Shown here: positions 10,141 to 60,890 of the stretch, piece by piece | Layout: each line of letters opens with the position of its first letter | How positions within the stretch are numbered: position 1 is the stretch's first letter | Source of the DNA: Mobula birostris | Taxonomy: Eukaryota | Assembly: GCF_030028105.1 (NCBI RefSeq) | Contig: NC_092379.1 | Span: 25,103,821-25,167,820, forward strand | Reading direction: 5' to 3' | Length of the DNA stretch: 64,000 bases | The notes under the pieces: model-generated | Told to the model about the DNA's origin: nothing | Seen by the model: the letters and a program-made list of their open reading frames with translations, nothing else | Database searches by the model: none | Program-made: the position numbers and the translations under genes

Positions 10141-13100
10141 TAGAATCATAGAGAAGTAGATCAAGTAAATACGGTCCTTGGCACATGTAGTCCATATCAA
10201 AATAATTTAATCTTCGTATTCCGATTCAGATGCAACGAGACCATATGGCTCCATGATGCTGCTACCCATGTACCATTCCTAACTTTTCCTACATGGTCCA
10301 ATTGTGCTCACATGGAGCACGTTCAGGCAGCTGATTCCACACTCTCTCAAGCCTCTGAGTGAAAACGCCTTCCTCCAGGTTCCACTCAATCTGCTCATAT
10401 CTCACCCTTAAGCATGACCTCTGTTTGTAGACCTACCAATCTCGTTGGCAAAGCGCGTGCTTTCATTGATCCTATCTTCTCTCCTCATAATTGTATATAA
10501 ATGTACCACAATTGCCCTCAATCTTATACGTTCAAAAAGTACAGCCCTAGCCTATTGCTGTGTTCCTTACAGGTCAGTTCCTGCAGACTATGAAACATCG
10601 TTCTAAAATGTATCTTTACTCGTTCGACCTTGATTAAATATCTCTTGTAGATAGGTAACACAAATTGCAAATAATACTCCAAATTAGGCATCATTGGCGT
10701 CTTATGTAATTCCTGTATCACGTCTATACTCAATGTACGAATGCCAAGTTGCCATTAGATTTACTTCTGACGCCATCGAATTGTGACGCCGCTGTCAACG
10801 AATTAGGTACCTGTATTCTCAGATATACTTGTTCTACCACAGGCTTCAGTGCACTACCATTCACTGTATAAGACCTCTCCTGTTGGTCTAAACGGATTGC
10901 AATACTTCGCAGGTGCCGCCATTAAGTTCCATATCCGATCGTGTAGCTCATTTTTTTTCCAGCTGATACATATCCCGCTGAAAGCCATCAAATCATCCTC
11001 TACACCCAGAGTCATGGTGTAATCCTCAAATTTCCTGATCCGGTTGATCACAACATCATCCATATCGATAAAAAATGAATGGCAAACAATAAATAACCGA
11101 GCACAGATCCATGTGAATCACCGCTAGTCACAGACCTTCAGTCATAGAGCCATACTCTACTTTCTCTGGCTTCTCCCACAAAACGAATGTCGAGTAACAT
11201 TTCCTACTAAATACTTTAGGAGAGACTGAACCTTCCTACCCAGCCTCCCATGCGGGACACTACTAAGTATCTTACTGAAGTCCACGGTGACAAGATGCGC
11301 TGTCTTTTTTTTTTTTTTTACCAATTTTCCGTAACTTCCTCGATAAACTATATATTTGGTTGGACATGATGTACCACGCACGGAGCCATGCTCCCTATCA
11401 GTCTACGTCTATCCAAATACTTATATATTCGGAACCATAGAATACCTTCCAGTAGTTTGCCGGGAACTATTGTCAGACTGAACGTCCTACAATTTCATGA
11501 TCTCTGTTTAGGACATAGTTTAGAAACAAATAAAAAAAAAAAAAAAAAAAAAAAAAGAAACGTTGGCTATCATCCAATCATTAGGTACCGCTCCTTTTTT
11601 AATGAAGTTTTGAATATCATTGCGTGCTCCCACAATATCTGAACTTCGAATCGGAAGAACACCTTGCCAGGCCCTGCAGAGCTCTCAACACTGATATACC
11701 TCAGGGTAGCAAACACCACCTCCTCTGTCATTTGTTCAGTGTCCATGAAGTTGCTATATCTTTGCCGCCTTTTAGAGATTGCATATCCATTTCAGAAGTA
11801 AATACAGATGCAAACGATCGATATACGATTCTCCATATATGGTTTAGCTCCACATAACGACTATCATTCTTGTCATCTAAAGGACTATTCTTGTCCCTTG
11901 CAAACCATTCCGAGTTAACATAAATGAACACCATAGTGTTCTCCTTCGCCTTTCTTGCTAGAGCAGTTCTATGTATTATTTTTGCTTTCCTCACTTCTTT
12001 GTTAATGGTTATCATGCATTTGTTGTGCTCCATAAAAAATCAGACTTGTTCCTACCTGATAGACTTGCTATGCACTTCATTTTTGTAACCAGCACATCCT
12101 GCTTCTTAAATCCCTCCGTCTCTGTCGCTTCTGAAACAGCGGAACTCCTGATTCTTGTGCTACCAGTCCTCGTTGTTCTGTAACCAGGTCGCACAGATGA
12201 CTACAACGTCACCATTCCAGGTTATAATTCATGTCCTGAGCTCATCCACCTTACCTGCTTCTTTACATGAAATATAGACAGATCAGGATTTTGGGTGTGT
12301 CACTCTCAATCCTTTTGATTCCTGAGCTTGATAAGGTCTCACCGACATCTGCCTGCACAACTTCTTCGATAGCTATGATGGTTCCCTCGTTCGCACCCCT
12401 CTGCAGAAATAAGTTAAGACCCAAGTGAATAACTAACAAAAATTTCCATTCGGTTATTAGCTCCGCTCAAGTTCAGGTACAAACCTGTAGTGTTCCCGAC
12501 TTCCCTGGAAGACAGCCCTATGACTAAAACATCTTAATACGTCTTTCGATACACTACGAACTATTTTGCATAGTGTTAAACTGTAGAATCTTATTAGTTA
12601 TGTATTCTTCAGAACGTAACACCCGTAGCAATACTTAGATCACACCTTGAAGGTTCTGGCCTTTCACTTTCTACATATCTCCCTGAGCTTGCTATGCCAA
12701 ACGACGTCATTCGTCTTGCCCGTGTCGATTGGTTACCTACATGGACCACACGTTTTAGCTGTTCGCTTGCCAGGAATGCTTAGGACCTGATTCGAGACAT
12801 CCTAGTCCTGGCACCCTGAAGTAAACAGACCATCAAAGAATCTCGTTTTAGCCCACAGAACCTCCTGACTGTTTCCTAAACTAACGGATACTCTACCGCC
12901 ATAGCGTGCCTCTACTCACTTCCTACCTTCTAAGTAACGGAGATTGATGCATTATCAGATATCCGACCACTGACACTTGCCTCTGTTGGGTCACCCGCTG
13001 ACCAACAGTATAGAAAGTGACATACCTGTCGTTGAGGAGATTCACCATAGGGGAACATCACACTCTCTCCTTAACTACTTTCTACCTCTTGACAGTCACT

Positions 13101-14422: not shown

Positions 14423-15560
14423 TTATAGAAACATAGAAACATAGAAAATAGGTGCAGGAGTAGGCCATTCGGCCCTTCGAGACTACACCGCCATTTATTA
14501 TGATCATGGCTGATCATCCAACTCAGAACACCGCCCCAGCCTTCCCTCCATACCCCCTGACCCCCGTAGCCACAAGGGCCATATCTAACTCCCTCTTAAA
14601 TATAGCCAATGAACTGGCCTCAACTGTTTCCTGTGGCAGAGAATTCCACAGATTCATCACCCTCTGTGTGAAGAAGTTTTTTCCTAATCTCGGTCCTAAA
14701 AGCACTGAGATCCAGGAATATTGAGAATCCATTCCTGCGCTGGTGCCAGCCAAGTCTCTGTAATGGCCACTACATCATAATTCCATGTATGTATCCAAGC
14801 TCTCAGCTCATCACCTTTGTTCCTGATGCTTCTGCATTGAGGTAAACACATTTCAGCCCTTCTAACTTACTGTCTTTACCGAGTTAATTCTGTTTATCTT
14901 TCCACAATGTCTCTCTATATGTTAGATCTGGCTTTACTCCGTGCACTTCTTTCACTGCTCTAACTTTCTGGGTCCCATCCCCCTTGCAAATTAGTTTAAA
15001 CCCTCCTGAACCATGCCAGAGAACCTACCTGCAAGGATATTGCTCCCCCTCGAGTTCAGGTGCAAACCATCCAATCTCTACAGGTCCTACCTTTCCCAGA
15101 AGCGATCTCAACGATCCAAAAATCTAAAACCCTGTTCCCTGCACCAACACCTCAGCCACGCATTCAACTGCCATCCCCTCCAATTCTTACCATCACTGTT
15201 ACGTAGCACTGGCAGCAATCCTCAGAACGCCACCCTTGAGGTCCTGTTCTTCAGCCATCTGCCTAGTTCCTGAAACTCACACTTCAGGACCTGAGACATC
15301 CAGGACCCTTGCACGCGGGAGGTAACAAACCATGCGGGTGTCCTTCTCATGTCCACAAAATCTCCTGTCTGCTCCCCTGACTATAGAGTCTTCAATGATG
15401 ACGGCACTCCTCTTCTCCGTCCCACGCTTCTGCCCCACCAGGTCAGACTTAGTGCCGGAGGTCCTGCCACCGTGGCTCACACCTGGTCGGTCGTCCCCGC
15501 CAACAGTATCCAGGACGGTAAAGTTATTATGGCCAGCAGAGCTGCCAATACCCATTATTG
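14423..15560 (-). mobile_element. CR1 LINE with large internal deletion (SGNH ORF1 and endonuclease start fused to the 3' end)
   Basis: ORF1 has AVIIEDSIVRGADRRFCG. The ORF1 end EGLN* is at ~14991 and the endonuclease start GLKCVYLNA at ~14850. There is an abrupt jump at ~14700 to the 3' end (RVMNLWNSLPQETVEA) with a TAGAAACATAGAAACATAGAAA tail. Confidence 0.85.
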
Positions 15561-17720: not shown

Positions 17721-17890
17721 ATTTAAAACTGCAGGACCGCCAGGAATTTCTTCACAGGATTCCTAGCCATGCCATGTGTTCAGGAGGCCAGAACAAGAAA
17801 GATAACGGGCTCAACGGGCTTAGGCGGAAACAGGCGAGGCGAGGGAGGTTTGACATTCATTTTGTGTTGTTATTTGAGGAGAGGGGCAGT

Positions 17891-18827
17891 ATGAGTGTGA
17901 GGGCAGTTTGCTGTTCTCGGTGTCGGATGTGGGAGGCCCTGGAGTCTACAAGTCTCCCTGACGTCTACATCTGCGCCAAGTGCATCGAGATGCAGCTCCT
18001 TAGGGACCGCGTTACGGAACTGGAGCTGCAGCTCGATGACCTTCGCCTGGTCAGGGAGAGTGAGGAGGTGATAGAGAGGAGTTGCAGGCAGGTGGTCACG
18101 CCGGGGCCACGGGAGGCAGACAAGTGTGTCACGGTTAGGAGGGGGAAGGGGAAAGGTCAGGTAATAGGGAGTACCCCGGTGGCTGTGCCCCTTAACAACA
18201 GGTATTCCTGTTTGAGTACTGTTGGGGGGGGACAGCTTACCCGGGGGAAGCGACAGTGGCCGTGCCTCCGGCACAGAGTCCGGCCCTGTAGCTCAGAAGG
18301 GTAGGGCAAGGAAGAGGAGGGCAGTTGTGATAGGGGACTCGATAGTAAGGGGGTCAGATAGGCGATTCTGTGGACGCAGTCCAGAGACCCGGATGGTAGT
18401 TTGCCTCCCTGGTGCCAGGGTCCGGGATATTTCTGATCGTGTCCAAGATATCCTGAAGTGGGAGGGTGAGGAGCCAGAGGTCGTGGTACATATAGGTACC
18501 AATGACATAGGTAGGAAAAGGGATGAGGTCCTGAAAGGAGAATATAGGGAGCTAGAAAGGGAGTTGAGAAAAAGGACCGCAAAGGTAGTAATCTCGGGAT
18601 TACTGCCTGTGCCACGCGGCAGTGAGAGTAGGAATGCGATGAGGTGGAGGATAAATGCGTGGCTGAGGGATTGGAGCAGGGGGCAGGGATTCAAGTTTTT
18701 GGATCATTGGGACCTCTTTTGGCGCAGGCGTGACCTGTACAAAAAGGACGGGTTGCACTTGAATCCTAGGGGGACCAATATCCTGGCAGGGAGATTAGCG
18801 GGGGCTACTGAGGTGACTTTAAACTAG
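17891..18827 (+). pseudogene. CR1 ORF1 (zinc finger/leucine zipper plus SGNH/GDSL esterase), +1 frameshift in a G8 run
   Basis: MSVRAVCCSRCRMW...YICAKCIEMQLLRDRVTELELQL, then VIGDSIVRG, HIGTND and DGLHLN. The frames join if the G8 at 18224-18231 were G7. Confidence 0.9.
18818..18827 (+). promoter_or_regulatory. Candidate -1 programmed ribosomal frameshift site T TTA AAC TAG
   Basis: An X XXY YYZ heptamer in ORF1 phase (TTA 18819-21, AAC 18822-24, TAG 18825-27). The -1 frame (TTT AAA CTA GAA TGG TTG...) is the ORF2 frame and is open to 19957. Confidence 0.55.
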
Positions 18828-21562
18828 AATGGTTGGGGGGTGGGAATCAAATTAAAGAGGCTAGGCGTGACGAGGGTAGTTCACTACAGGGGGATGGGAA
18901 CCAGTGCAGAGAGGCAGAGGGGTGTAAAGTGAGGGTAGAAACAAAAAGTACTATGGAGAAAAGTAAAAGTGGCAGGCCGACAAAACCAGGGCAAGCATTA
19001 AAAAGGGCCACTTTTCAGCATAATTGTATAAGGGCTAAGAGAGTTGTAAAAGAGCGCCTGAAGGCTTTGTGTGTCAATGCAAGGAGCATTCGTAATAAGG
19101 TGGATGAATTGAAAGTGCAGATTGTTATTAATGATTATGATATAGTTGGGATCACAGAGACATGGCTCCAGGGTGACCAGGGATGGGAGCTCAACATTCA
19201 GGGATATTCAATATTCAGGAGAGATAGACATGGAGGAAGGGGAGGTGGGGTGGCGTTGCTGGTTAAAGAAGAGATTAACGCAATAGAAAGGAAGGACATA
19301 AGCCGGGAAGATATGGAATCGATATGGGTAGAGCTGCGTAACACTAAGGGGCAGAAGACGCTGGTGGGAGTTGTGTACAGGCCACCTAACGGTAGTAGTG
19401 AGGTCGGAGATGGTATTAAACAGGAATTTAGAAATGTGTGCAATAAAGGAACAGCAGTTATAATGGGTGACTTCAATCTACATGTAGATTGGGTGAACCA
19501 AATTGGTAAAGGTGCTGAGGAAGAGGATTTCTTGGAATGTATGCGGGATTGTTTTTTGAACCAACATGTCGAGGAACCGACTAGAGAGCAGGCTATTCCG
19601 GACTGGGTTTTGAGCAATGAGGAAGGGTTAATTAGCAATCTTGTCGTGAGAGACCCCTTGGGTAAGAGTGACCATAATATGGTGGAATTCTTCATTAAGA
19701 TGGAGAGTGACATAGTTAATTCAGAAACAAAGGTTCTGAACTTAAAGAGGGGTAACTTTGAAGGTATGAGACGTGAATTAGCTAAGATAGACTGGCAAAT
19801 GACACTTAAAGGATTGACGGTGGATATGCAATGGCAAGCATTTAAAGGTTGCATGGATGAACTGCAACAAATGCTCATCCCAGTTTGGCAAAAGAATAAA
19901 TCAAGGAAGGTAGTGCACCCGTGGCTGACAAGAGAAATTAGGGATAGTATCAATTCCTAAGAAGCAGCATACAAATTAGCCAGAGAAAGTGGCTCACCTG
20001 AGGACTGGGAGAAATTCAGAGTCCAGCAGAGGAGGACAAAGGGCTTAATTAGGAAGGGGAAAAAAGATTATGAGAGAAAACTGGCAGGCAACATAAAAAC
20101 GGACTGTAAAAGCTTTTATAGATATGTAAAAAGGAAAAGACTGGTAAAGACAAATGTAGGTCCCCTGCAGACAGAAACAGGTGAATTGATTATGGGGAGC
20201 AAGGACATGGCAGACCAATTGAATAATTACTTTGGTTCTGTCTTCACTAAGGAGGACATAAATAATCTTCCAGAAATAGTAGGGGACAGAGGGTCTAGTG
20301 AGGTGGAGGAACTGAGCGAAATGCATGTTAGTAGGGAAGTGGTGTTAGGTAAATTGAAGGGATTGAAGGCAGATAAATCCCCAGGGCCGGATGGTCTGCA
20401 TCCCAGGGTGCTTAAGGAAGTAGCCCAAGAAATAGTGGATGCATTAGTGATAATTTTTCAAAACTCGTTAGATTCTGGACTATTTCCTGAGGATTGGAGG
20501 GTGGCTAATGTAAATCCACTTTTTAAAAAAGGAGGGAGAGAGAAACCGTGGAATTATAGACCGGTTAGCCTAACGTCGGTGGTGGGGAAACTGCTGGTGT
20601 CAGTTATGAAGGATGTGATAACAGCACATTTGGAAAGCGGTGAAATGATCGGACAAAGTCAGAATGGATTTGTGAAAGGAAAATCATGTCTGACGAATCT
20701 CATAGAATTTTTTGAGGATGTAACTAGTAGAGTGGATAGGGGAGAACCAGTGGATGTGGTATATTTGGATTTTCAGAAGGCTTTTGACAAGGTCTCACAC
20801 AGGAGATTAGTGTGCAAACTTAAAGCACACGGTATTGGGGGTAAGGTATTGGTGTGGGGGGAGAGTTGGTTAGCAGACAGGAAGCAAAGAGCGGGAATAA
20901 ACGGGACCTTTTCAGAATGGCAGGCGGTGACTAGTGGGGTACCGCAAGGCTCAGTGCTGGGACCCCAGTTGTTTACAATATATATTAATGACTTGGATGA
21001 GGGAATTAAATGCAGCATCTCCAAGTTTGCGGATGACACAAAGCTGGGTGACAGTGTCAGCTGTGAGAAGGATGCTAAGAGGATGCAGGGTGACTTGGAT
21101 AGGTTGGGTGAGTGGACACATTCATGGCAGATGAAATTTAATGTGGATAAATGTGAAGTTATCCACTTTGGTGGCAAAAATAGGAAAACAGATTATTATC
21201 TGAATGGTGGCCGATTAGGAAAAGGGGAGGTGCAACGAGACCTGGGTGTCATTATACACCAGTCATTGAAAGTGGGCATGCAGGTACAGCAGGCGGTGAA
21301 AAAGGCGAATGGTATGCTGGCATTTATAGCGAGAGGATTTGAGTACAGGAGCAGGGAGGTACTACTGCAGTTGTACAAGGCCTTGGTGAGACCACACCTG
21401 GAGTATTGTGTGCATTCTTGGTCCCCTAATCTGAGGAAAGACATCCTTGCCATAGAGGGAGTACAGAGAAGGTTCACCAGATTGATTCCTGGGATGGCAG
21501 GACTTTCATATGAAGAAAGACTGGATGAGCTGGGCTTGCACTCGTTGGGGGGATCTGATTGA
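18818..21562 (+). pseudogene. CR1 ORF2 (APE endonuclease plus reverse transcriptase), disrupted
   Basis: Motifs LCVNARSIRNK, GITETW, MGDFN, SDHN, KSPGPDG, YLDFQKAFDKV, GVPQGSVLGP and FADDTK are present. A single in-frame TAA is at 19958-60 (ORFs 18833 and 20186 are in the same frame), and a short deletion/frameshift lies at ~21547. Confidence 0.93.
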
Positions 21563-21648
21563 AACGTATAAGTTCCTAAGGGGATTGGACAGGCTAGATG
21601 CAGGAAGATTGTTCCCGATGTTGGGGAAGTCCAGAACGAGGGGTCACA

Positions 21649-23640
21649 GATAGGGAGGGCGGAACAAAGGGCAGAAGGGTGGCATTACGGGTCAGGGATA
21701 CTAGAACAGCAACAGAAAGAGTGGGTAATGTAGCAGGATCCTCTTTTGAGTCAGTATGGGTAGAAGTCAGGAACAGGAAGGGAGCAGTTACTCTATTGGT
21801 GGTATTTTATAGGCCCACTGGTAGCAGCAGTGTGGGGCATATTTTGGAAAGGTGCAAAAATAACAGAGTTGTTATCGTGGGTGACTTCAACTTCCCTAAT
21901 ATTGATTGGCACCTGATTAGTTCCAAGGGTTTAGATGGGGCAAAGTTTGTTAAGTGTGTCCAGGCCGGATTCATATAACAGTATGTGGACAGGCCGACTA
22001 GGGCGAATCTCATACTAGATCATGTACAAGCTAATGAACCGGGTCAGGTCACAGATCTCTCAGTGTGTTAGCATCTGGGGGACAGTGACCACCGCTCCCT
22101 GGCCTTTAGCATTTTCATGGAAAAGCATAGAATCAGAGAGGACAGGATTTTTTTTTTTTAATTGATGAAGGGAAAGTTAGAGGCTGTTAGGCTCGAACAT
22201 GCGGGTGTGAATTGGGAATATGTTTTTTTGCCGGGAAATATATCATGGACATGTGATCGATGTTCAGAGATCTCTTGCAGGATATTAGGGATACATTTGT
22301 CCCGGTGAGGAAGATAAAAACTGGTAGGGTGAAGGAACCATGGGTGACAAGTGAGGTGGAAAATCTAGTCAGGTGGACGAAGGCAGCATACATGAGGTTT
22401 AGGAAGCAGGGATCAGATGGGTCTATTGAGGAATATAGGGAAGGATGAAAGGAGCCTAAAATGGGGCTGTGGAAGTCAAGAAGCGGGCATGAGAAGGCCT
22501 TGGCGAGTAGGGTAAAGGAAAACTCCAAGGCATTCTTCAATTATGTGAAGTAAAAATGGATGACAGGATTGAAGGTAGGGCCGATTAGGGATGAAGGTGG
22601 GAAGATGTGCCTGGAGGGTCTGGAAGTGAACAAGGTCCTCAATGAATACTTCTCTTCTGTATTTACCAATGAGAGGGAACTTGATCATGGTGAGGACAAT
22701 ATGAATGGGGTTGATGTTCCGGAGCATGTTGATTTTAAGGGAGAGGAGGTGTTGGAGTTGTTAAAATGCATTAGGACGGGTAAGTCCACGGGACCTGACG
22801 GAATATTCCCCAGGCTGCTCCACGAGGCGAGGGAAGAGATTGCCAAGCCTCTGGCTAGGATCTTTATTTCCTCATTATCCACGGGAATTCTACTGGAGTA
22901 TTGGAGGGAGGCGAATATTGTCCCCTTGTTCAAAAAAGTTAGATGGAGCTCAACCCGGAGAAGTGTGAGGTGGTACACTTTGGAAGAACAAACTCCAAGG
23001 CAGGGTACAAAGTAAATGACAGGATGCTTGGTAGTGTGGAGGAGCAGAGGGATCTCGGGTACTTGTCCACAGATCCCTGAATGTTGCCTCACAGGTAGAT
23101 AGGGTCATTAAGAAAGCGAATGGGGTGTTAGCTTTCATAAGTCGAAGGATAGAGTTTAAGAGTCGCGATGTAAAGATGCAGCTCTATAAAACTCTAGTTA
23201 ACCCACGCTTAGAGTATTGTGTCCAGTTCTGGTCGCCTCACTACATGGAGGATGTTGAAGCATTGGAAAGGGTACAGAGGAGATTTACAAGAATGCTGCC
23301 TGGTTTAGATTGTATGCATTATGATCAGAGATTGAGGGAGCTAGGGCTTTACTCTTTGGATAGGAGGATGAGAGGAGACATGATAGAGGTATACAAGATA
23401 ATAAGAGGAATAGATAGTGTGGATAGCCAGCGCCTCTTCCCCAGGGCACCGCTGCTCAATACAAGAGGACATGGCTTTAAGGTAAGGGGTGGGACGTTCA
23501 AGGGGATATTAGAGGAAGGTTTTTTTTTTTTTTATTCTGAGAGTGGTGCGTGGAATGCACTGCCTGAGTCAGTGGTGGTAGCTGATACATTAGTGATTTT
23601 CAGAGACTACTAGACAAGTATATTGAGGAATTTAAGGTGG
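21649..23640 (+). mobile_element. Second CR1 subfamily copy, 5'-truncated, RT core deleted
   Basis: Endonuclease VWVEVRNRKG...VGDFNFPNIDW and KSTGPDGIFPRLL are present. At ~22928 the sequence jumps from ANIVPLFKK directly to a QMELNPEKCEVVHFG-like segment. The C-terminus is in ORF 23125-23613. Confidence 0.9.
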
Positions 23641-31039: not shown

Positions 31040-33000
31040 GGGAGTTATATGAAATGTACAGGAAACAGGGGGTAAATCAGGTTCTTGAGGAGTATAAGAA
31101 GTGCAAGAAAATACTTAAGAAATAAATCAGGAGGGCTAAAAGAAGACATGAGGTTGCCTTGGCAGTCAAAGTGAAGGATAATCTAAAGAGCTTTTACAAG
31201 TATATTAAGAACAAAAGGATTGTAAGGGATAAAATTGGTCCTCTTGAAGATCAGAGCGGTCGGCTTTGTGCGGAACCAAAGGAAATGGGGGAGATCTTAA
31301 ATCGTTTTTTTGCGTCTGTATTTACTAAGGAAGCTGGCATGAAATCTATGGAATTGAGGGAATCAAGTAGTGAGACCATGGAAACGGTACAGATTGAAAA
31401 GGAGGAGGTGCTTGCTGTCTTGAGGAAAATTAAGGTGGATAAATCCCCGGGACCTGACAGAGTGCTCCCTCAAACCTTGAAGGACACTGGTGTTGAAATT
31501 GCGGGGGCCCTGGCAGAAATATTTAAAATGTCGCTGTCTATGGGTGAAGTGCCGAAGGATTGGAGATTGCTCATGTTGTTCCGTTGTTTAAAAAAAGATC
31601 GAAAAGTAATCCGGGAAATTATAGGCCGGTGGGTTTAACGTCAGTAGTAGGTAAATTATTGGAGGGAGTACTAAGAGAGAGAATCTAGAAGCATTTGGAT
31701 AGGCAGGGGCTTATTAGGGAGAGTCAACATGGCTTTGTGCGTGGTAGGTCATGTTTGATCAATCTGTTGGAGTTTTTCGAGGAGGTTACCGGGAAAGTGG
31801 ATGTGGATATTGCCTACATGGACTTCAGTAATGCATCTGACAAAGTCCCGCATGGGAGGTTAGTTAGGAAAATTCATTCGCTAGGTATACATGGAGAGGT
31901 GGTAAATTGGATTAGACATTGGCTCGATGGAAGAAGCCAGAGTGGTGGTAGAGAATTGCTTCTCTGAGTGGAGGCCTGTGCCTAGTGGTGTGTCACAGGG
32001 ATCAGTGCTGAATCCATTGCTATTTGTCATCTATATCAATGATTTCGATGATAATGTGGTAAATTGGATTAGGAAGTTTGCTGATGATACAAAGATTGGA
32101 GGTGTAGTAGACAGTGAGGAAGGTTTTCAGAGCCTGCAGAGGGAGTTGCACCAGCTGGAAAAATGGGCTGAAAAATGGCAGATGGAATTTAATAGTGACA
32201 AGTGTGAGGTACTGCACGTTGGAAGGACAAACCAACGTAGGACATACAGGGTTAATGGTAAGGCACTGAGGAGTGCAGTGGAACAGAGGGATCTGGGAAT
32301 ACAGATACAAAATTCCCTAAAAGTGTCGTCACAGGTAGATAGGGTCGTAAAGAGATCTTTTGATATATTGGCCTTTATTAATCAAAGTATTGAGTATAAG
32401 AACTGGAATGTTATGATGAGGTTGTATAAGGCATTGGTGAGGCCTAATCTGGAGTATTGTGTTCAGTTTTGGTCACCAAATTACAGGAAGGACATAAATA
32501 AGGTTGAAAGAGTGCAGAGAAGGTTTACAAGGATGTTGCCGGGACTTGAGAAACTCAGTTACAGAGAAAGGTTGAATAGGTTAGGACTTTATTCCCTGGA
32601 GCGTAGAAGAATGAGGGGAGATTTGATAGAGGTATATAAAATTATGATGGGTATAGATAGAGTGAATGCAATCAGGCTTTTTCCACTGAGGCAAGGGGAG
32701 AAAAACAAAACAGAGGACATGGGTTAACGGTGAGAGGGGAAAAGTTTAAAGGGAACATTAGGGGGGGTTTCTTCACACAGAGCGTGGTGGGAGTATGGGA
32801 TGAGCTTCCAGACCAGGTGGTAAATTCGGGTTGTTTTTTTTTAACATTTAAGAATAAATTGGACAGACACATGGATGGGAGGTGTATGGAGGGATATGGT
32901 CCTTGTGCAGGGCAGTGCGACTAGGCAGAAAATGGTTCGGCACAGACAAGAAGGGCCAAAGAGCCTGTTTCTGTGCTGTAGTTTCTATGGTTCTATGTAT
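31040..33000 (+). mobile_element. 5'-truncated CR1 LINE (RT to 3' tail), frameshifted
   Basis: KSPGPD, GFVRGRSCLINL, YMDFSNASDKV, QGSVLNP and FADDTK are present, with tail TTTCTATGGTTCTATG at ~32982. Confidence 0.92.
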
Positions 33001-35839: not shown

Positions 35840-35911
35840 GGGCACGGACGGGATTTGAACCCGCGATCTTCGGTTTACGAGACCGACGCCTTTCCACTTG
35901 GCCACCGCGCC
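35840..35911 (-). tRNA. tRNA-Thr(CGT): tRNA-Thr (anticodon CGT)
   Basis: GGCGCGGTGGCCAAGTGGAAAGGCGTCGGTCTCGTAAACCGAAGATCGCGGGTTCAAATCCCGTCCGTGCCC folds into a full cloverleaf. Acceptor stem GGCGCGG/CCGTGCC, anticodon stem TCGGT/ACCGA with loop CTCGTAA, T-stem GCGGG/CCCGT. A and B boxes are intact. Confidence 0.93.
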
Positions 35912-36989: not shown

Positions 36990-38140
36990 AAGGTCGGACT
37001 CAGGTACACATATCTTTATTTTGATTTCGGCTGTCAAGAGAAATGCCTGCTAGTTCTGGGAAACCGATTAAAAACAGACATTCATGCAGTTTGACGACCA
37101 ATTAGAATTATCTTCTTTGAATGAGTCAATCACAGAGGCATGTAATGGCGTTCTACTGGGGTCAGTGTTGGGACCACTTCTTTTTATGCTGTATATAAAT
37201 GATTTAGCTGACGGAATAAATGGCTTGTTGTCAAGTATGCAGATAATACAGAAGGTGGTAGAAGGGCGAGTAGAGTTGAGGAAACAGGTAGGATGTACAA
37301 GGATTAGACGGATTAGGAGAATGGACAAGAAAGTGGCAAATGTAATATAGTGTTGGAGGTGGCATGGTCATGCACTTTGGTAGTAGAAATGAATGTGCGG
37401 ACTATTTTCCAAACAGGGAGAAAATCCAAAAATCTGTGATGAAAGGTTCTTGTGACTCCCTATACATGATTAGATAAAGGTTAACTTACAGGTAAAGTCG
37501 GTGGTGAGTAAAGCAAACGCTATTTTAACATACATTTTGTGAGGTCCAGAAGGCAACAGCAAGGATGTTATGCTGAGGTTTTATAAGGCCTTACCTAGAG
37601 TATTGAGTACCTTTTCTTCCGTTCATGTTAGGAAAGATGTGTTGGCATTGGAGAGGGTGAAGAGAAGGTTTACAACGAAGATTCCAGGAATGAAAGGATT
37701 ATCATATGAGGAACGTTTAATGGCTCTGGATCTCTACTCGCTGGAATTCTGAAGGATAAGTGGGGATCTCACTGAAACCTTTCAAATGCAGCAAGGCATG
37801 GACAGAGTTAATGTGGAAAGGTTAATTGCATTGGTTGAATAGTCTAGTTTTAAAGGGCACAGCCTCAGGATAGAGGAACGTCATTTCAAATGACAGATGG
37901 GGAGAAATGTCTTGAGCCAGAGAGTGGTGAATCTATGTAATTTGTTACCACATGCATCTGTGGATGCTCGCTTGGGGTGTTTAAGGCAGAGATCGATGGG
38001 GTTTTGATTAGACGCATCAATGCTTACGGGAAGAAGTCCGAGAAATGGGGTTGAAGAGAAGATCGAATAAAAAGTATCAGCCCTGATTGAATGGAAGAGA
38101 AAACTCTAGGGGCCAGATGGCCTAATTCTGCTCCTGTATC
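36990..38140 (+). mobile_element. CR1 LINE RT/3' fragment, degenerate
   Basis: GVLLGSVLGPLLFMLYINDL and MLRFYKAL...KDVLALERVKRRFT; 3' UTR ending GGCCTAATTCTGCTCCTGTATC. Confidence 0.8.
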
Positions 38141-46319: not shown

Positions 46320-47000
46320 CACAGAGGATTATGGGTGTTTGGAATGTACTACCAGAATTGAACACAGTACCCCAAGTGGGGTCTGACCAGGGTCTAATAT
46401 AGCTGCAACATTACCTCTCGGCTCTTAAACTCAATCCCACGATTGATCAATCCAATGCACTGTATGTCTTCTTAACCACAGAGACAACCTGTGCAGCAGC
46501 ATTGAACGACCTATGGACTTGGACACAAATATCCCCCTAATCCTCCACGCTGCCAAGAATCTTACCATTAATGCTATATCCTGCCATCATATTTGACCAA
46601 GCAAAAATGTAGCACCTCACACCGATCTGTGTTGAACTCCATCTGCCACTTCTCAGCCCAGTTTTGAATCCTATCAATGTCTCTGGGTTATCCTTTGACA
46701 TCCCTCTACACTGTTCACAACACGCCCAACCTTTGTGTCATGAGTAAATTTACTAAACCACCCCTCTACTGCCTCATCCAGGTCATGTAAAAAAAATCAC
46801 AAAGAGCAGGTGCCCCAGAACAGATCTTTGAGCCATATCCCTGATCACCGGTTTCCATGCAGAATATGACCTGTCTACAACCATTTTTTTTGCCTTCGGT
46901 GGGCAAGCTAGTTCTCTATCCACAAAGTAATGACCCTTGGATACCATGCCCCCTAACTTTCTCAATAAGCCTTCCATGGAGAACCTTATCGAATCCTTGC
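46320..47000 (-). mobile_element. CR1 RT fragment
   Basis: ORF 46783-47010 VYFSKDS...WKPVIRDMAQRSVLGHLLFVI. Confidence 0.75.
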
Positions 47001-48189
47001 TAAAATACAAGGGTCGGTGGCAATCACTTCGAATATCAGCAGCACATACGATGAACGGGGAGTAAAGGACAGTGTTATAAATCTGAATTGTTACAAGCTA
47101 TGCCGATCATATTTAGGTTCACATCCAACAAACGGATTTTTTACTAGAATATTTAACTTAATCTTTCCTGAAATAATTAATCAACCTGCTTCACTATAAA
47201 GACGTACGTCTTAAATATCCTAGAACATCTTTATTATAAATTATCATTAATCATTGTGCAGGAGGTGTTCTTTAAGTAGTATTGATCCGTTAAATCCACA
47301 ACTTACAGACTGATTCGTGTTTAAATAAAAGTAACTTCACATTAAATTTGGTAATATTGCAAAAAATAGCTGGAAGATGACACGTCACTGTTTGATCTGA
47401 CACCATGTTTACTCTGGTCGTACTCTCTAAACACATTTTGATTCTCTTGTTACCGACAGATCCATGGGGAATTCCTGGCGAACAGTTCTCTCATTGGCAA
47501 ACTTATAAGTACCTTTAAGCTCTTCCTGGTCAGAGAGCCTTTCCTTGTTTCTTTGTTGTTGTTCTGTGTGTTGTTTTTTTTTTTTTTTTAATTTTAGAGC
47601 AGCGGGCTTAACCACGGATTTGAGGCGCGCGAATGTTGCTTTGCAGCGAGAAGGAAAATTGTTGCCCATCAGGACAGACTTGAATACAATTTAAGCGGTT
47701 AATTGCCTATTTACAGAGGGAGATACAAAGGCCCAGTTCTTCAGACCTTGTTCATTTGATACTGAGTGTATGATTGTGTTCCCTTCTCAGCTGCAATCAA
47801 TTGACATTAACAACTATTAATGCCCACGTGATTCAAGTTGTTGTGGACAGCCAGTGTTGCTGCAGACCAAGTGTGTCGATAGGAAAAGAGCAGCGGGTCT
47901 ACATCCACTATTAAGTAGGAGATTATCTAGCCACCAGCGACTTCCCAGAGCACTTTATCACATTATCTGTAACTGTTAAAGGACAAAAGTTGTTGAGTTA
48001 TAGTATTAGACACCTGTAGGTACTGGGTGAGACCTCAATCGGTATATTTTTAACTATTAAAATAGTCTGCTCTATGTTGAACCTGGGCTTTCTAGTTCTG
48101 GATCACTGGTTTTGGATTCACAACTTTAGCGTTCAACAGACTCCTGAATCTTTTGGTTGCTTAGTTCGGCTACAGCTGAATATCATCCA

Positions 48190-52942: not shown

Positions 52943-53850
52943 GGCTCAGCTTCTCAAGTTCTTTCTTAACACTCAGTGACCTGCCTTCAGGACCTTTTCC
53001 CCTGTCTTACCTATATCGTTGGTACCAATTTGTATCACGACCTCTGGCTGTTCTCCTTCTCACTTCAAGATTTAGTGTAAGCGATCAGAAACATCGCGGA
53101 CCTTGGCGCCTGGATGACAATCGAACAATCGATTTTCTTTCCTCCGTCCACAGAATCGCCTGTCTGACCTTCTAACTATAGAGTCCCCTCTCTATGCTAC
53201 CATCCTCTTCCTTTACCTACCGTTCTGAGCCACAGGGTCAGAATCTGTGCCAGAGGCGCGAACATTTGCTGTTTGTTCCAGGTAGGCCACTCCCACAATA
53301 GTACTCAAATAAGTGTATTCATTGTTAAAGGTGACAGCTACTAGTGTGCTCTCTAGCATCTGCCTCTTACCCTTCCCTCTCCTGACTGCTACCCACTTAC
53401 CTAGCTCTCCAGGCCCCGGAGTGACTATCTGCCTATAGTTTCTCTCTACAATCTCCTCACTCTCGTTGACCAGACGAAGGTTACCGAGCTGCATATTCAG
53501 TTCTCTAACGTGGTCCCGAAGGAGCTGCAGCTGGACGAGCGTGGTGCAAATGTGGCCCTCCGGAAGTCTGGCAGTCTCCATGACCTCCCACATCTGACAC
53601 CGAGCACAGAAAACCGGCCTTCCACACATACTTTCTATCTGTATTCTTCACAGATAACCTATCTCACCTCGACCCGTAATCGATGAAGCCCCCTTGAGCT
53701 AAGGCCTTTCTACTCTGTCGTCCTCTATTCCAACACCCGCTTCTCCGACGCCCGCTGTATAAATCTGTCTTTTTTTCAACTCTTCTCGTTGTTTGCACTG
53801 GCTAACCTGTACGCGCTTGCGCAGTCGTGCCCCGTTCAAACAGCTGAAGA
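52943..53850 (-). mobile_element. CR1 5' UTR plus ORF1 fragment
   Basis: ORF 53213-53629 VFCARCQMWEV...HICTTLVQLQLLRDHVREL, followed by a decayed SGNH part. Confidence 0.85.
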
Positions 53851-53899: not shown

Positions 53900-54213
53900 C
53901 ACATTATTCCGTAAAGAGGGGTAGGAAGTCAGAGTGAGCCACGGTGCTCTGTTTGAAAATATAAAAGTGAAATCAGATCAATGGAAAGGGATAATATATG
54001 GTCGGAAAGTATTTAATGTGGCTTGAACTAAGGAACTGCAATCCTCGTGTTTAATACAAGCTCCCAAACAGCAGTAAGGATACGACCGAGAAACGACAAA
54101 GGAAGGTCGAAAGTACGTGCCAAAGTGGCAACTTTTCAACAGTGATGGTAGATTTCAATCTGCAATTAGACTGAGAAATTCAGGTTTCTACTGGAAATTC
54201 TAGAGTTCCAAAG

Positions 54214-54262
<49 letters not shown>

Positions 54263-55620
54263 ATCTGCTCGTGGATGAGCCCAGTAGAGAATTAGCTATA
54301 TTCGATTGGTTGCTGTGAAATGAAACAAAATTGTATATGAACCTATGGTTAAGAAATCATTATCTTTGAAATGTCACAATAGAATCGAATTCACACGGAA
54401 TTTTCCCATGGCAAAGTCAGATGTATCAGTATTTCAGGCATGAAAGAGAATTTGGCAGGAAATGAATGGAAAATAACACTGGGCGGAATGGCAGCAGAGT
54501 AGCATTGACTGGAAAACCTGGAAACAATTGGAAAGCACAGTGTATATCCAGACTAAAGAGCAAGACATATTCTAAATGAAAAGTTGACATAACTGTGGAT
54601 AGCAAGAGATGTCAAAGCAAACATAGCAGACAAAGCAACGCCATGTAACTGAAAAAAAAAAAGGATTGGTTTTGGATAACTGGGAAAAACTTTAAAAAGC
54701 CAATAAAAGGACAATTAAAACCAATATGATGGTAAGGATGAAAATAAAGTAGCCGAGCATATTAAAGATCATACCACACATTTCTTCAGATGCACGTAAA
54801 AGAGAGGCGGAAGTTGATATTGAACCGCTGGGAAATGGTGCTGCACTTGTGGTACTGCGGGCAACGAATTTGGCGGACGAACTGAAAAGTGTTTTGCATC
54901 AGTCTTCTTTGTGGAATACACTAACAATATGGTGAAATTTCCAGGGGTTCAGAGATCATGAAGTGTATGGAGTTACCATAAATTGAAATAAGGTTATTTT
55001 GAAACTGAACGATCTGAAAACCGGTAGGTTATCTTGACGAGAAGGCGTAAACGCCGAAGTTCTGAAGGTTTTCGCTGAAGACCTAGTGGAGTTATTAGCG
55101 TTGGTCTTTCAAGAATCACTCGATTTTATCAAGGGTGCAGAAGACTTGAAACTTGCAAATGCACTCCACTATTCAAATAGGCACAGATGCAAAATAAAGA
55201 AAACTATGACCAGTGAAACTGACCCGAGTGACTGATAAGATTTTCGAGACCATTATTAAGTATGAGGTCTCATGATTCTTGACACAGCATAATAAAGTAA
55301 ATGGTATTCATGCTGGTTTATTCAACGGCAAATCTCGCCTGCGACATCTGCTGAAATTATTTGAAGACATAAAAAGCTGAATAGACAAAGGATAATGATG
55401 TACTTCGATAGAAATAATGCAATGGAAAAAGTGCCACTCATGAGGCTACTAACAAGGGACGAGCGTATAGTGTTATCGGAACGTTTGCAGCATGGATAAA
55501 ACAGTGTCTGATTGGCAGGAGGTAATGCATGGGAGTATTGGGAGCCGGTAACCCGTAGTGTTGAACAGTGGTTAATTTTGGTGTCAATTCCTTTTCCGTT
55601 ATATGTCAAGGATATTATTA
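53900..55620 (+). mobile_element. Old CR1 ORF2 fragment(s)
   Basis: Decayed endonuclease (VMVDFNL) and RT (LVFQES...ANAxPLFK, SCLRHLLKLFE) segments. Confidence 0.6.
54214..54260. repeat. (A)n(TA)n simple repeat
   Basis: Direct inspection. Confidence 0.95.
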
Positions 55621-59829: not shown

Positions 59830-60890
59830 ACAACGCCCCCACCTTTTTTTTTCCTCCCTCCTTGTCCTTTCTAAAACATCTAAAACCTGGCATTCGGAAA
59901 ATCATTCCTGTCCCTGAGCCATCAAAGTTTCTGTAATGGTCATAAACATCATGTCTGCATTACTGATCCACACTCTGTGCTCATTCACTTAGTCCATTAT
60001 ATTCCTTCACTAAAATAGACACATCTCTGACAATCGATCTGAGCACCATCCGTTCTCTAGCTCCTGCCTACCCTCCCTCTCGCGCTGTCTCAAACCTTCT
60101 TCTATTTGTGAGTCAACCGGCTCTTCCTCCGTTACTTCAGTTCGCTTCCCACTCCCCAGAAATCATAGGTTAAACTCTCCCCAATATGTTTGCAAACCTC
60201 CAGGATACTGGTCCCCTTGGTATTCAAGCGCAACCCGCCCCTTTTGTACATGTCACAACTGCCGCAAAGGAGGTTCCAAGTATTCATAAATCTGAATCCC
60301 TGCACTCTGCTGCAATCCCTAAGCCATGCATTAATCCTGCACCTCATGCTATCGTATGCTCACTCTCATATGGCACAGGCAGTAATCGGGAGATTACTAT
60401 TTTTGAGGTCCTGCTTCTCAACGTCCTTCCTAACTCCCTGTCGTCTGTTTTAAGGCCCTTTTCCCTTGTTCCTACCTATGTCGTTGGTACTAATGTGTAT
60501 ATGACCTATGGCTTTACTCCTTCCCATTTCAGAATAACGTGGACGCGATGAGAAACATCTCAGTCCCAGCACCTTGGAGGCAAACTACTATCCGTGTTTC
60601 TTTCCTGCGACACAGAATCGCCTGTCTGACCCCATAACTATAGAGCCAGTGTCACTGCTGCCCACCTCTTCCTTTCCCTACCTTTCTGAACTGTAGGCCC
60701 AAACTCTGTGCCAGAGGCGCGGCCACTGTTACTTCCCCTAGGTTGGCTGTCTCATCTAACAGTACTGAAACATGAGCACTTTTTTTTTTTTAAGCGGGAC
60801 GGCCAGTGGGGTACTCTCTGGCATCTGCTACTCCCCTTGCATGGGAACTTACACATGTTCCAGCATTTAAAAAATCAAGAAAAAAAACAA
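59830..60890 (-). mobile_element. CR1 ORF1 (SGNH) and endonuclease start, degenerate
   Basis: MRCRINAWLRDCSRVQGFRFM...GGLRLNTKGTSIL. Confidence 0.8.

What the first reader, a model, noticed from the sequence alone, without database searches (positions are those of the whole stretch)
18818..18900. Canonical -1 ribosomal frameshift heptamer (U UUA AAC) at the CR1 LINE ORF1/ORF2 junction
Seen in the sequence: ORF1 ends ACT TTA AAC TAG, so T TTA AAC is correctly phased as X XXY YYZ. The -1 frame (TTT AAA CTA GAA TGG...) is the ORF2 frame and has no stop until 19958. It is closed upstream by TGA at 18809-11, and its first in-frame ATG is at 18953. A G-rich tract (GGTTGGGGGGTGGG) starts 6 nt after the heptamer. 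Established: UUUAAAC is the coronavirus slippery site, G-quadruplexes or an adjacent stop can promote slippage, and LINE ORF2s are usually thought to be made by termination-reinitiation. Inference: these CR1s may make an ORF1-ORF2 (ZnF-SGNH esterase-endonuclease-RT) fusion by programmed frameshifting, like a retroviral Gag-Pol. I cannot check whether this has already been described.
Basis: partly seen in the sequence, partly recalled or inferred. Interest (0 to 1): 0.8.

Follow-up and report, generated by a model that had tools for sequence, protein, structure and literature searches.

The report
Vertebrate CR1 LINE ribosomal frameshift site
An abundant jumping gene of rays, and its bird-like relatives, ends its first gene with the same seven-letter slippery sequence that coronaviruses use, followed one base back by a second gene that often has no start codon, so the copying enzyme is likely made when ribosomes slip back one base and fuse the two proteins.

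Summary
Observation confirmed and much wider than this copy. U UUA AAC plus a stop ends ORF1 in eight CR1 subfamilies of this 4-Gb ray genome and in 13 of 14 bird-type CR1 junctions. 72 of 75 complete ORF1 homologs end in Leu-Asn, among them shark, coelacanth, frog, turtle, squamate and bird proteins. The codons are frozen (TTA, AAC, a preceding T under five amino acids) while 10 of 11 other invariant residues vary synonymously. The spacer to the endonuclease takes nine lengths, all multiples of three, and is stop-free only in the -1 frame; five ray subfamilies have no shared in-frame AUG before the endonuclease motif. Best reading: programmed -1 frameshift giving an ORF1-ORF2 fusion (0.82); not tested experimentally. 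Corrections: the conserved G motif starts 10 nt (not 6) downstream, no conserved hairpin or pseudoknot stem was found, and a G-quadruplex folds in only 4 of 18. Against: 6 of 10 bird-type copies carry an AUG at or just after the stop. Ten literature searches found no report for CR1; Dictyostelium TRE5-A/TRE3-A are the nearest precedent. This scan noted the same site earlier in two other genomes (e1-8041403, e1-9568866).

The parts
17808..21648 (+). CR1 LINE copy, young subfamily A (end approximate; a fragment of another CR1 follows)
   Evidence: BLAST to sister copies starts at 17808, 97-98% identical; next endonuclease fragment at 21649
17891..18827 (+). ORF1: zinc-finger-like N-terminus, SGNH esterase; broken in this copy by one extra G in 18224-18231
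   Evidence: homologous to ZfL2-1 esterase PDB 4C1B, E 6e-28
18809..18811 (+). TGA closing the -1 frame upstream of the heptamer
18818..18824 (+). Slippery heptamer U UUA AAC, phased X XXY YYZ in the ORF1 frame
18825..18827 (+). ORF1 stop directly after the heptamer (TAG here; TAA and TGA in other lineages)
   Evidence: TAG 10, TAA 6, TGA 2 of 18
18835..18844 (+). Conserved G motif GGGGGNNGGG, 10 nt after the heptamer; predicted stimulator
   Evidence: G in 17-18 of 18 at five positions, fixed spacing
18818..19075 (+). -1-frame spacer of 86 codons from the heptamer to the Asn of the first endonuclease motif (NARS)
   Evidence: 258 nt in 52 of 60 copies
18953..18955 (+). First in-frame ATG; subfamily-specific, not conserved
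   Evidence: 42 of 52 A copies; no shared counterpart in B, C, E, F, H
19076..21562 (+). ORF2 endonuclease and reverse transcriptase; private stop at 19958-60
14974..15000 (-). Junction of a second subfamily (B): heptamer 15000-14994, TAA, G motif
   Evidence: ORF1 only 54-60% identical in protein
60148..60174 (-). Decayed junction of a third, old copy (heptamer with one change, G motif still visible)

Best explanation
The end of CR1 ORF1 carries a conserved U UUA AAC heptamer with ORF2 open one base back, and it is likely a programmed -1 ribosomal frameshift site that would make a Gag-Pol-like ORF1-ORF2 fusion. Shown: the heptamer, its phase, the adjacent stop, the frozen codons, the -1 frame open to the endonuclease, the lack of a conserved AUG, and a G motif at a fixed 10-nt distance. 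Inferred: most ribosomes terminate at the stop and release ORF1p ending in Leu-Asn; a minority pause with tRNA-Leu and tRNA-Asn on UUA AAC, slip to UUU AAA, read CUA/CUG (Leu) over the stop and run through a free-evolving spacer into endonuclease and RT. The pause is most likely supplied by slow termination at the adjacent stop plus a protein (or, in some lineages, a two-tier quadruplex) on the G motif, rather than by a pseudoknot. The likely function is to set a low RT:ORF1p ratio and carry RT into the ORF1p particle.
For: (1) Codon freeze: 18 of 18 lineage representatives have T TTA AAC; the base before Leu is T under Thr, Ser, Gly, Ala and Cys. Control on 11 lineages: of 13 invariant esterase residues only 3 keep one codon, two of them Leu and Asn; ray-versus-bird four-fold sites are about 30% identical. 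TTA is 10% of Leu codons, joint chance 0.0145 per independent draw. (2) Copies: exact heptamer in A 59/60, B 77/88, C 22/30, D 8/16, E 13/21, F 3/3, G 24/25, H 19/22; 13 of 14 bird-type junctions. (3) Frame: modal heptamer-to-Asn distances 258, 162, 162, 150, 150, 216, 192 in rays and 117, 159, 189, 270 in bird-type loci, all multiples of three; no shared stop in the -1 frame (0.0-0.9 stops per copy) against 2.9-9.7 in the other frames. (4) No shared in-frame ATG before the endonuclease Asn in B, C, E, F, H; the -1 frame is closed 1-5 codons upstream in 13 of 18 and has no upstream ATG in any. (5) Proteins: 72 of 75 complete C-termini end LN; the residue before LN allows a U-ending codon in 80 of 82, against 46 and 47 of 82 one and two places earlier. 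(6) A distant unnamed clade ends in (Q/K/V/A)GN in 13 of 28 and carries (K/Q)GF(L/F) near the end in 3 more, compatible with G GGA AAC and G GGU UUU, which PMC5009743 lists with U UUA AAC among the most shifty heptamers; protein-level hint only.
Against: No experiment or ribosome data. 6 of 10 bird-type representatives have an in-frame ATG at or 2 nt after the stop, one of them a UAAUG overlap like SART1; A and G have an in-frame ATG mid-spacer. No conserved downstream stem: RNAalifold 0 pairs, z below -2 in 2 of 18, quadruplex in the minimum-energy fold in 4 of 18, no shared long-range partner; most efficient -1 sites have such a stimulator. The spacer shows no excess of synonymous change. 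D has no clear modal length (210 in 2 of 16); one bird-type locus (L227) is out of frame; three loci with DNA past the match (L206, L212, L224) showed no heptamer within 400 nt. 12 of 28 distant-clade proteins fit no heptamer. Lineages share ancestry, so they are not independent draws. DNA was seen only for rays and bird-type loci.
Confidence: 0.82

Rival explanations
1. Termination-reinitiation: ribosomes stop at the ORF1 stop and restart ORF2 at a nearby AUG or non-AUG codon, as shown for SART1 and proposed for L1; the heptamer and G motif would be a reinitiation signal.
For: In-frame ATG at or 2 nt after the stop in 6 of 10 bird-type representatives, one UAAUG overlap; SART1 precedent in PMC3708506; AUG-independent initiation considered for L1 in PMC5009743. 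It may operate alongside frameshifting in birds.
Against: Five ray subfamilies lack a shared in-frame ATG before the endonuclease Asn and several carry an out-of-frame ATG inside the G motif; reinitiation does not require a fixed -1 phase across nine spacer lengths, nor a textbook X XXY YYZ heptamer.
Confidence: 0.1
2. Protein constraint only: ORF1p needs C-terminal Leu-Asn and ORF2p needs N-terminal Phe-Lys-Leu, and the overlap of the two frames freezes the bases.
For: Dual coding of LN and FK would fix TTTAAAC exactly (genetic code); LN is near-invariant over vertebrates.
Against: It needs ORF2 to start upstream of TTT, but the -1 frame is closed one or two codons upstream in 7 of 18 and has no ATG there in any; related esterases end otherwise (P0148 and the distant clade).
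Confidence: 0.03
3. The heptamer and G motif are an RNA or DNA signal for something else (packaging, ORF1p binding, splicing, internal promoter) and ORF2 comes from a separate or processed transcript.
For: The G motif is conserved at third positions under different amino acids, so it acts as nucleic acid.
Against: No AG acceptor in TAA/TGA lineages and no pyrimidine tract; no Rfam match at the junction; would not explain the fixed -1 phase and stop-free spacer from the heptamer onward.
Confidence: 0.05

Closest known systems
Coronavirus/IBV ORF1a-1b -1 frameshift (U UUA AAC)
   Same: Identical heptamer and phase; listed among the most shifty with mammalian ribosomes (PMC5009743, passages).
   Different: No conserved pseudoknot or stem-loop found downstream; the zero-frame stop follows the heptamer directly.
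Dictyostelium TRE5-A / TRE3-A (APE-type non-LTR retrotransposons)
   Same: A review figure legend states both require a -1 frameshift for ORF2 (PMC5911963, passage); same ORF1 / APE-RT layout.
   Different: Different clade and host; I did not see the primary data or their shift site. No esterase ORF1 or G motif described in the passage.
Arterivirus (PRRSV) nsp1beta-PCBP stimulated frameshift
   Same: A short unstructured homopolymer-rich motif at a fixed distance 3' of the shift site (CCCANCUCC, 11 nt; PMC5009743); here GGGGGNNGGG at 10 nt.
   Different: G-rich rather than C-rich; no binding protein is known; -1 only is predicted.
SART1 and L1 termination-reinitiation
   Same: Bicistronic LINE RNA with closely spaced ORFs; some bird-type CR1s have an AUG beside the stop.
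   Different: SART1 needs UAAUG plus a downstream structure (PMC3708506); most ray CR1 subfamilies have no such AUG.
Retroviral and LTR-retrotransposon Gag-Pol frameshifts
   Same: Structural ORF fused to polymerase ORF at low frequency; stop directly after the heptamer as recalled for Rous sarcoma virus (from memory, no call).
   Different: Non-LTR element, no protease domain seen to release RT.

Membership tests
Programmed -1 ribosomal frameshift site | X XXY YYZ heptamer phased in the upstream frame | tested here: met
Programmed -1 ribosomal frameshift site | Downstream ORF in the -1 frame, open from the heptamer, without its own conserved start | tested here: met
   exception: AUG near the stop in 6 of 10 bird-type copies
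Programmed -1 ribosomal frameshift site | Heptamer conserved at synonymous positions beyond protein need | tested here: met
Programmed -1 ribosomal frameshift site | 3' stimulatory pseudoknot or stem-loop 5-9 nt downstream | tested here: not met
   a conserved linear G motif stands at 10 nt instead. This excludes the coronavirus-type element, not protein- or stop-stimulated sites
Programmed -1 ribosomal frameshift site | Measured frameshifting or trans-frame peptide | not testable with these tools
   needs reporter, mass spectrometry or ribosome profiling
G-quadruplex-stimulated frameshift | Four G tracts able to form a quadruplex in all lineages | tested here: inconclusive
   two-tier pattern in 10 of 18, in minimum-energy fold in 4 of 18; G-richness above the 93rd percentile of the region in all 18
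Protein-stimulated frameshift (arterivirus type) | Linear motif at fixed ~10-11 nt spacing | tested here: met
Protein-stimulated frameshift (arterivirus type) | A trans-acting protein binds the motif and raises shifting | not testable with these tools
   no binding data
SART1-type termination-reinitiation | Conserved AUG overlapping or beside the ORF1 stop | tested here: not met
   absent in all eight ray subfamilies; present in 6 of 10 bird-type copies
CR1-clade LINE | ORF1 with SGNH esterase, ORF2 with APE endonuclease and RT | tested here: met
   clade label from domain layout and homologs, no RT tree was built

The most novel reading that the evidence does not exclude
Jawed-vertebrate CR1 LINEs have kept one Gag-Pol-style frameshift cassette since sharks and birds parted, driven not by RNA structure but by a protein bound to a G motif 10 nt downstream (possibly ORF1p itself, giving feedback control of reverse transcriptase output), and distant CR1 lineages have swapped the heptamer for other slippery sequences; it would be a natural G-motif-stimulated frameshift in one of the commonest repeats of vertebrate genomes.
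Probability: 0.35. Interest if true: 0.92.

Novelty: new variant of a known kind. Interest (0 to 1): 0.8.

Why it matters
How LINEs translate ORF2 is described as unclear (PMC3708506, PMC5009743, passages). CR1 is a major repeat class of birds, reptiles and cartilaginous fish; a frameshift would redefine its reverse transcriptase as an ORF1-ORF2 fusion, tell how to annotate and assay intact elements, and give a one-cassette reporter test. The 2016 review says natural use of G-quadruplexes as stimulators was not known but anticipated; this G motif is a candidate for that or for a new protein-stimulated class.

Tried and rejected
Chance test of the 10-mer in the window: not enriched, so not used as evidence. 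Downstream hairpin/pseudoknot stem, consensus fold, long-range pairing of the G motif: none conserved. Rfam: nothing at the junction. Purifying selection on spacer amino acids: not seen. Viral contigs and prokaryote genomes gave no usable CR1 junction; DNA for the distant GN-ending clade and for frog, turtle, squamate and coelacanth elements was not obtained. Sequencing runs: no RNA holder listed; contigs of four runs laid at 80% showed no recurrent joint across the junction and none of the 40 listed differences fell in 18818-27, but 125 were not shown and the runs may be DNA, so this is not counted. Splice acceptor and transcriptional slippage were considered and rejected from the sequence (no AG in TAA/TGA lineages, no long homopolymer). 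Literature: searches found no paper on CR1 frameshifting; Kapitonov and Jurka 2003 and Haas 1997 are not held; Kajikawa 1997, Repbase and Dfam entries were not seen and could already remark on the overlap; supplements of PMC4316615 (one file not searchable) and PMC8665684 held no junction sequences.

Full report
Observation. The sequence reads ACT TTA AAC TAG at 18816-18827, so T TTA AAC (18818-24) is phased X XXY YYZ; the -1 frame is open from 18812 to 19957, closed upstream by TGA at 18809-11, with its first ATG at 18953. Pfam places an SGNH esterase before the junction, an endonuclease in the -1 frame and RT after it; ORF1 matches the ZfL2-1 esterase structure 4C1B. The copy is dead: one extra G in 18224-31 breaks ORF1 and the stop at 19958 is private (1 of 48 sisters). 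The 10-mer is no rarer than chance in the window, so everything depends on comparison. The genome is 4.0 Gb; the nearest named proteins are from Mobula (94%) and other rays, so the host is probably a mobulid ray.

Other subfamilies in the same genome. A second CR1 in the window, 54-60% identical in ORF1 protein, ends the same way on the minus strand at 15000-14991. I sampled the genome without using the junction as query, except: 16 random 10-kb stretches (three junctions, two exact and one with a changed last base), a Pfam search (13), upstream ORF1 DNA (17-20, 67, 68) and an outgroup esterase (51, 53-55). Of 255 loci had a protein anchor and were scored; 27 were dropped for lack of one. Exact heptamer: A 59/60, B 77/88, C 22/30, D 8/16, E 13/21, F 3/3, with 10 further loci in one small cluster and singletons; G 24/25; H 19/22 with 3 of 25 unanchored. 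The junction was placed by best match in a 30-45 nt window after the anchor, which slightly favours matches. The deviations are scattered, as expected for decay after insertion. Modal distances from the heptamer to the Asn of the first endonuclease motif are A 258 (52/60), B 162 (67/88), C 162 (17/30), E 150 (8/21), F 150 (3/3), G 216 (16/25), H 192 (19/22); D is unresolved (210 in 2/16). In copies of modal length no stop is shared in the -1 frame (0.0-0.9 per copy) while the other two frames hold 2.9-9.7 per copy. A shared in-frame ATG exists in A (codon 46) and G (codon 39), also in the two D copies, and in none of B, C, E, F, H; several subfamilies instead have an out-of-frame ATG within the G motif. 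That this Asn is catalytic is recalled from L1 and APE1, not tested.

Other vertebrates. Of 120 listed ORF1 homologs, 80 reach the DGxH motif; of the 75 with a 20-36 residue tail, 72 end in LN and one each in IN, VN, GN. Named members include sharks, rays, Latimeria, Hyla, Xenopus, turtles, lizards, a snake and a hummingbird. The residue before LN is one with a U-ending codon in 80 of 82, against 46 and 47 of 82 at the two places before it. A metagenome scan gave 63 loci; I examined 20 and 4 more. Fourteen cover the junction and 13 have TTTAAAC; L204 is degenerate, L220 and L227 have lost the stop; L206, L212 and L224 show no heptamer within 400 nt. I call these bird-type from likeness to the hummingbird protein; their hosts were not determined. 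Six reach the endonuclease motif in the -1 frame at 117 (three), 159, 189 (counted by hand) and 270 nt; L214 keeps the frame with a partial deletion, L227 is out of frame. Together with the rays this is nine spacer lengths, all multiples of three: at least eight length changes, chance about 1.5e-4 if frame were free.

Codon test. In 18 representatives (8 ray, 10 bird-type, chosen among copies with a readable junction) the seven bases are invariant, the base before Leu is T under five amino acids, and the stop varies (TAG 10, TAA 6, TGA 2). As control, in 11 lineages chosen for the longest open esterase frame, 13 columns have an invariant residue and only 3 keep one codon: a Cys, and the terminal Leu and Asn; four-fold sites are about 30% identical between rays and bird-type, 40-87% among ray subfamilies. 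So synonymous sites have turned over while these have not. The -1 frame is closed 1-5 codons upstream in 13 of 18 and has no upstream ATG in any, which leaves no room for an ORF2 start before TTT.

The downstream element. A motif GGGGGNNGGG starts exactly 10 nt after the heptamer in all 18, with G kept at third codon positions under different amino acids, so it acts as RNA. No paired structure is shared: RNAalifold gives no pair, single folds have z below -2 in 2 of 18, a quadruplex enters the best fold in 4 of 18 and a two-tier pattern is present in 10 of 18, and no common long-range partner appears in 14 longer elements. The spacer peptide shows no synonymous excess: it must be open, not particular. 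The closest design is the PRRSV motif CCCANCUCC 11 nt after the shift site, bound by nsp1beta-PCBP (PMC5009743, passage). I therefore infer a protein-bound G motif plus slow termination as stimulator; this step is the least secure.

Distant relatives. A search from the GN-ending protein found 27 more of an unnamed clade plus one fish L2-like protein. Thirteen of 28 end in (Q/K/V/A)GN and 3 carry (K/Q)GF(L/F) near the end, which fit G GGA AAC and G GGU UUU; 12 fit neither, and no DNA was obtained. It is a hint of slippery-site exchange, no more.

Against. Six of ten bird-type representatives have an in-frame ATG at or 2 nt after the stop, one as UAAUG, so reinitiation may contribute in birds. 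There is no structured stimulator, no expression or ribosome data, and lineages are related.

What is known. I saw passages, by term search, of PMC5009743 (first 300,000 of 449,034 characters; no 'CR1'), PMC3708506 (ORF2 translation 'not clear'; SART1 reinitiation), PMC5911963 (TRE5-A and TRE3-A require a -1 frameshift), and PMC11835228, PMC4255032, PMC1947958, PMC5006619, PMC3905857, PMC8665684, PMC4316615, PMC13405545 (no CR1 frameshift statement). Ten searches found no report. The classic CR1 papers and repeat databases could not be read, so prior mention of the overlap is possible. Two earlier notes of this scan reached a similar reading on other genomes; I saw them after forming mine, they are not independent evidence, and one supplied the TRE5-A lead.

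Verdict. A real, deeply conserved feature, best explained as a programmed -1 frameshift joining ORF1 to ORF2 in vertebrate CR1 LINEs (0.82). The mechanism class is known; its use by this clade, with a stop-adjacent heptamer and an unstructured G motif, was not found in print. New variant of a known kind; interest 0.8.

Noticed in passing
proteins P0119-P0147: An unnamed CR1-like esterase clade ends in QGN/KGN/VGN/AGN or carries GFL/GFF near the end, compatible with other slippery heptamers (G GGA AAC, G GGU UUU).
   Followed up: partly
L214:2016-2030; L198, L200, L201, L202, L226 junctions: Bird-type CR1s often have an in-frame AUG at or 2 nt after the ORF1 stop, one as UAAUG; a second route to ORF2 may exist in birds.
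   Followed up: partly
L338-L361 (subfamily G): The best-matching G copies read DRLH or similar instead of DGLH at the esterase His motif in 23 of 24, partly a result of how the query selected them; other G copies keep DGLH.
   Followed up: no
window 35840-35911 (-): ARAGORN calls one tRNA-Thr(CGT); could be a tRNA-derived SINE or a true gene.
   Followed up: no
window 21649-23613, 31048-32598, 37096-37743, 46352-47011, 52952-53620, 54016-55392, 12112-12980: Many further decayed CR1/LINE fragments of other subfamilies, some nested.
   Followed up: no
protein P0022: A shark/ray-type CR1 ORF1 is deposited as a Pseudomonas aeruginosa SGNH hydrolase, and P0087 as a flatworm protein with frog-type sequence: probable host contamination in public records.
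   Followed up: no
G000:C1:99.87-100.15 Mb (L107-L109); C24 and C17 clusters: Near-identical old CR1 copies lie in clusters, suggesting segmental duplications that carry them.
   Followed up: no
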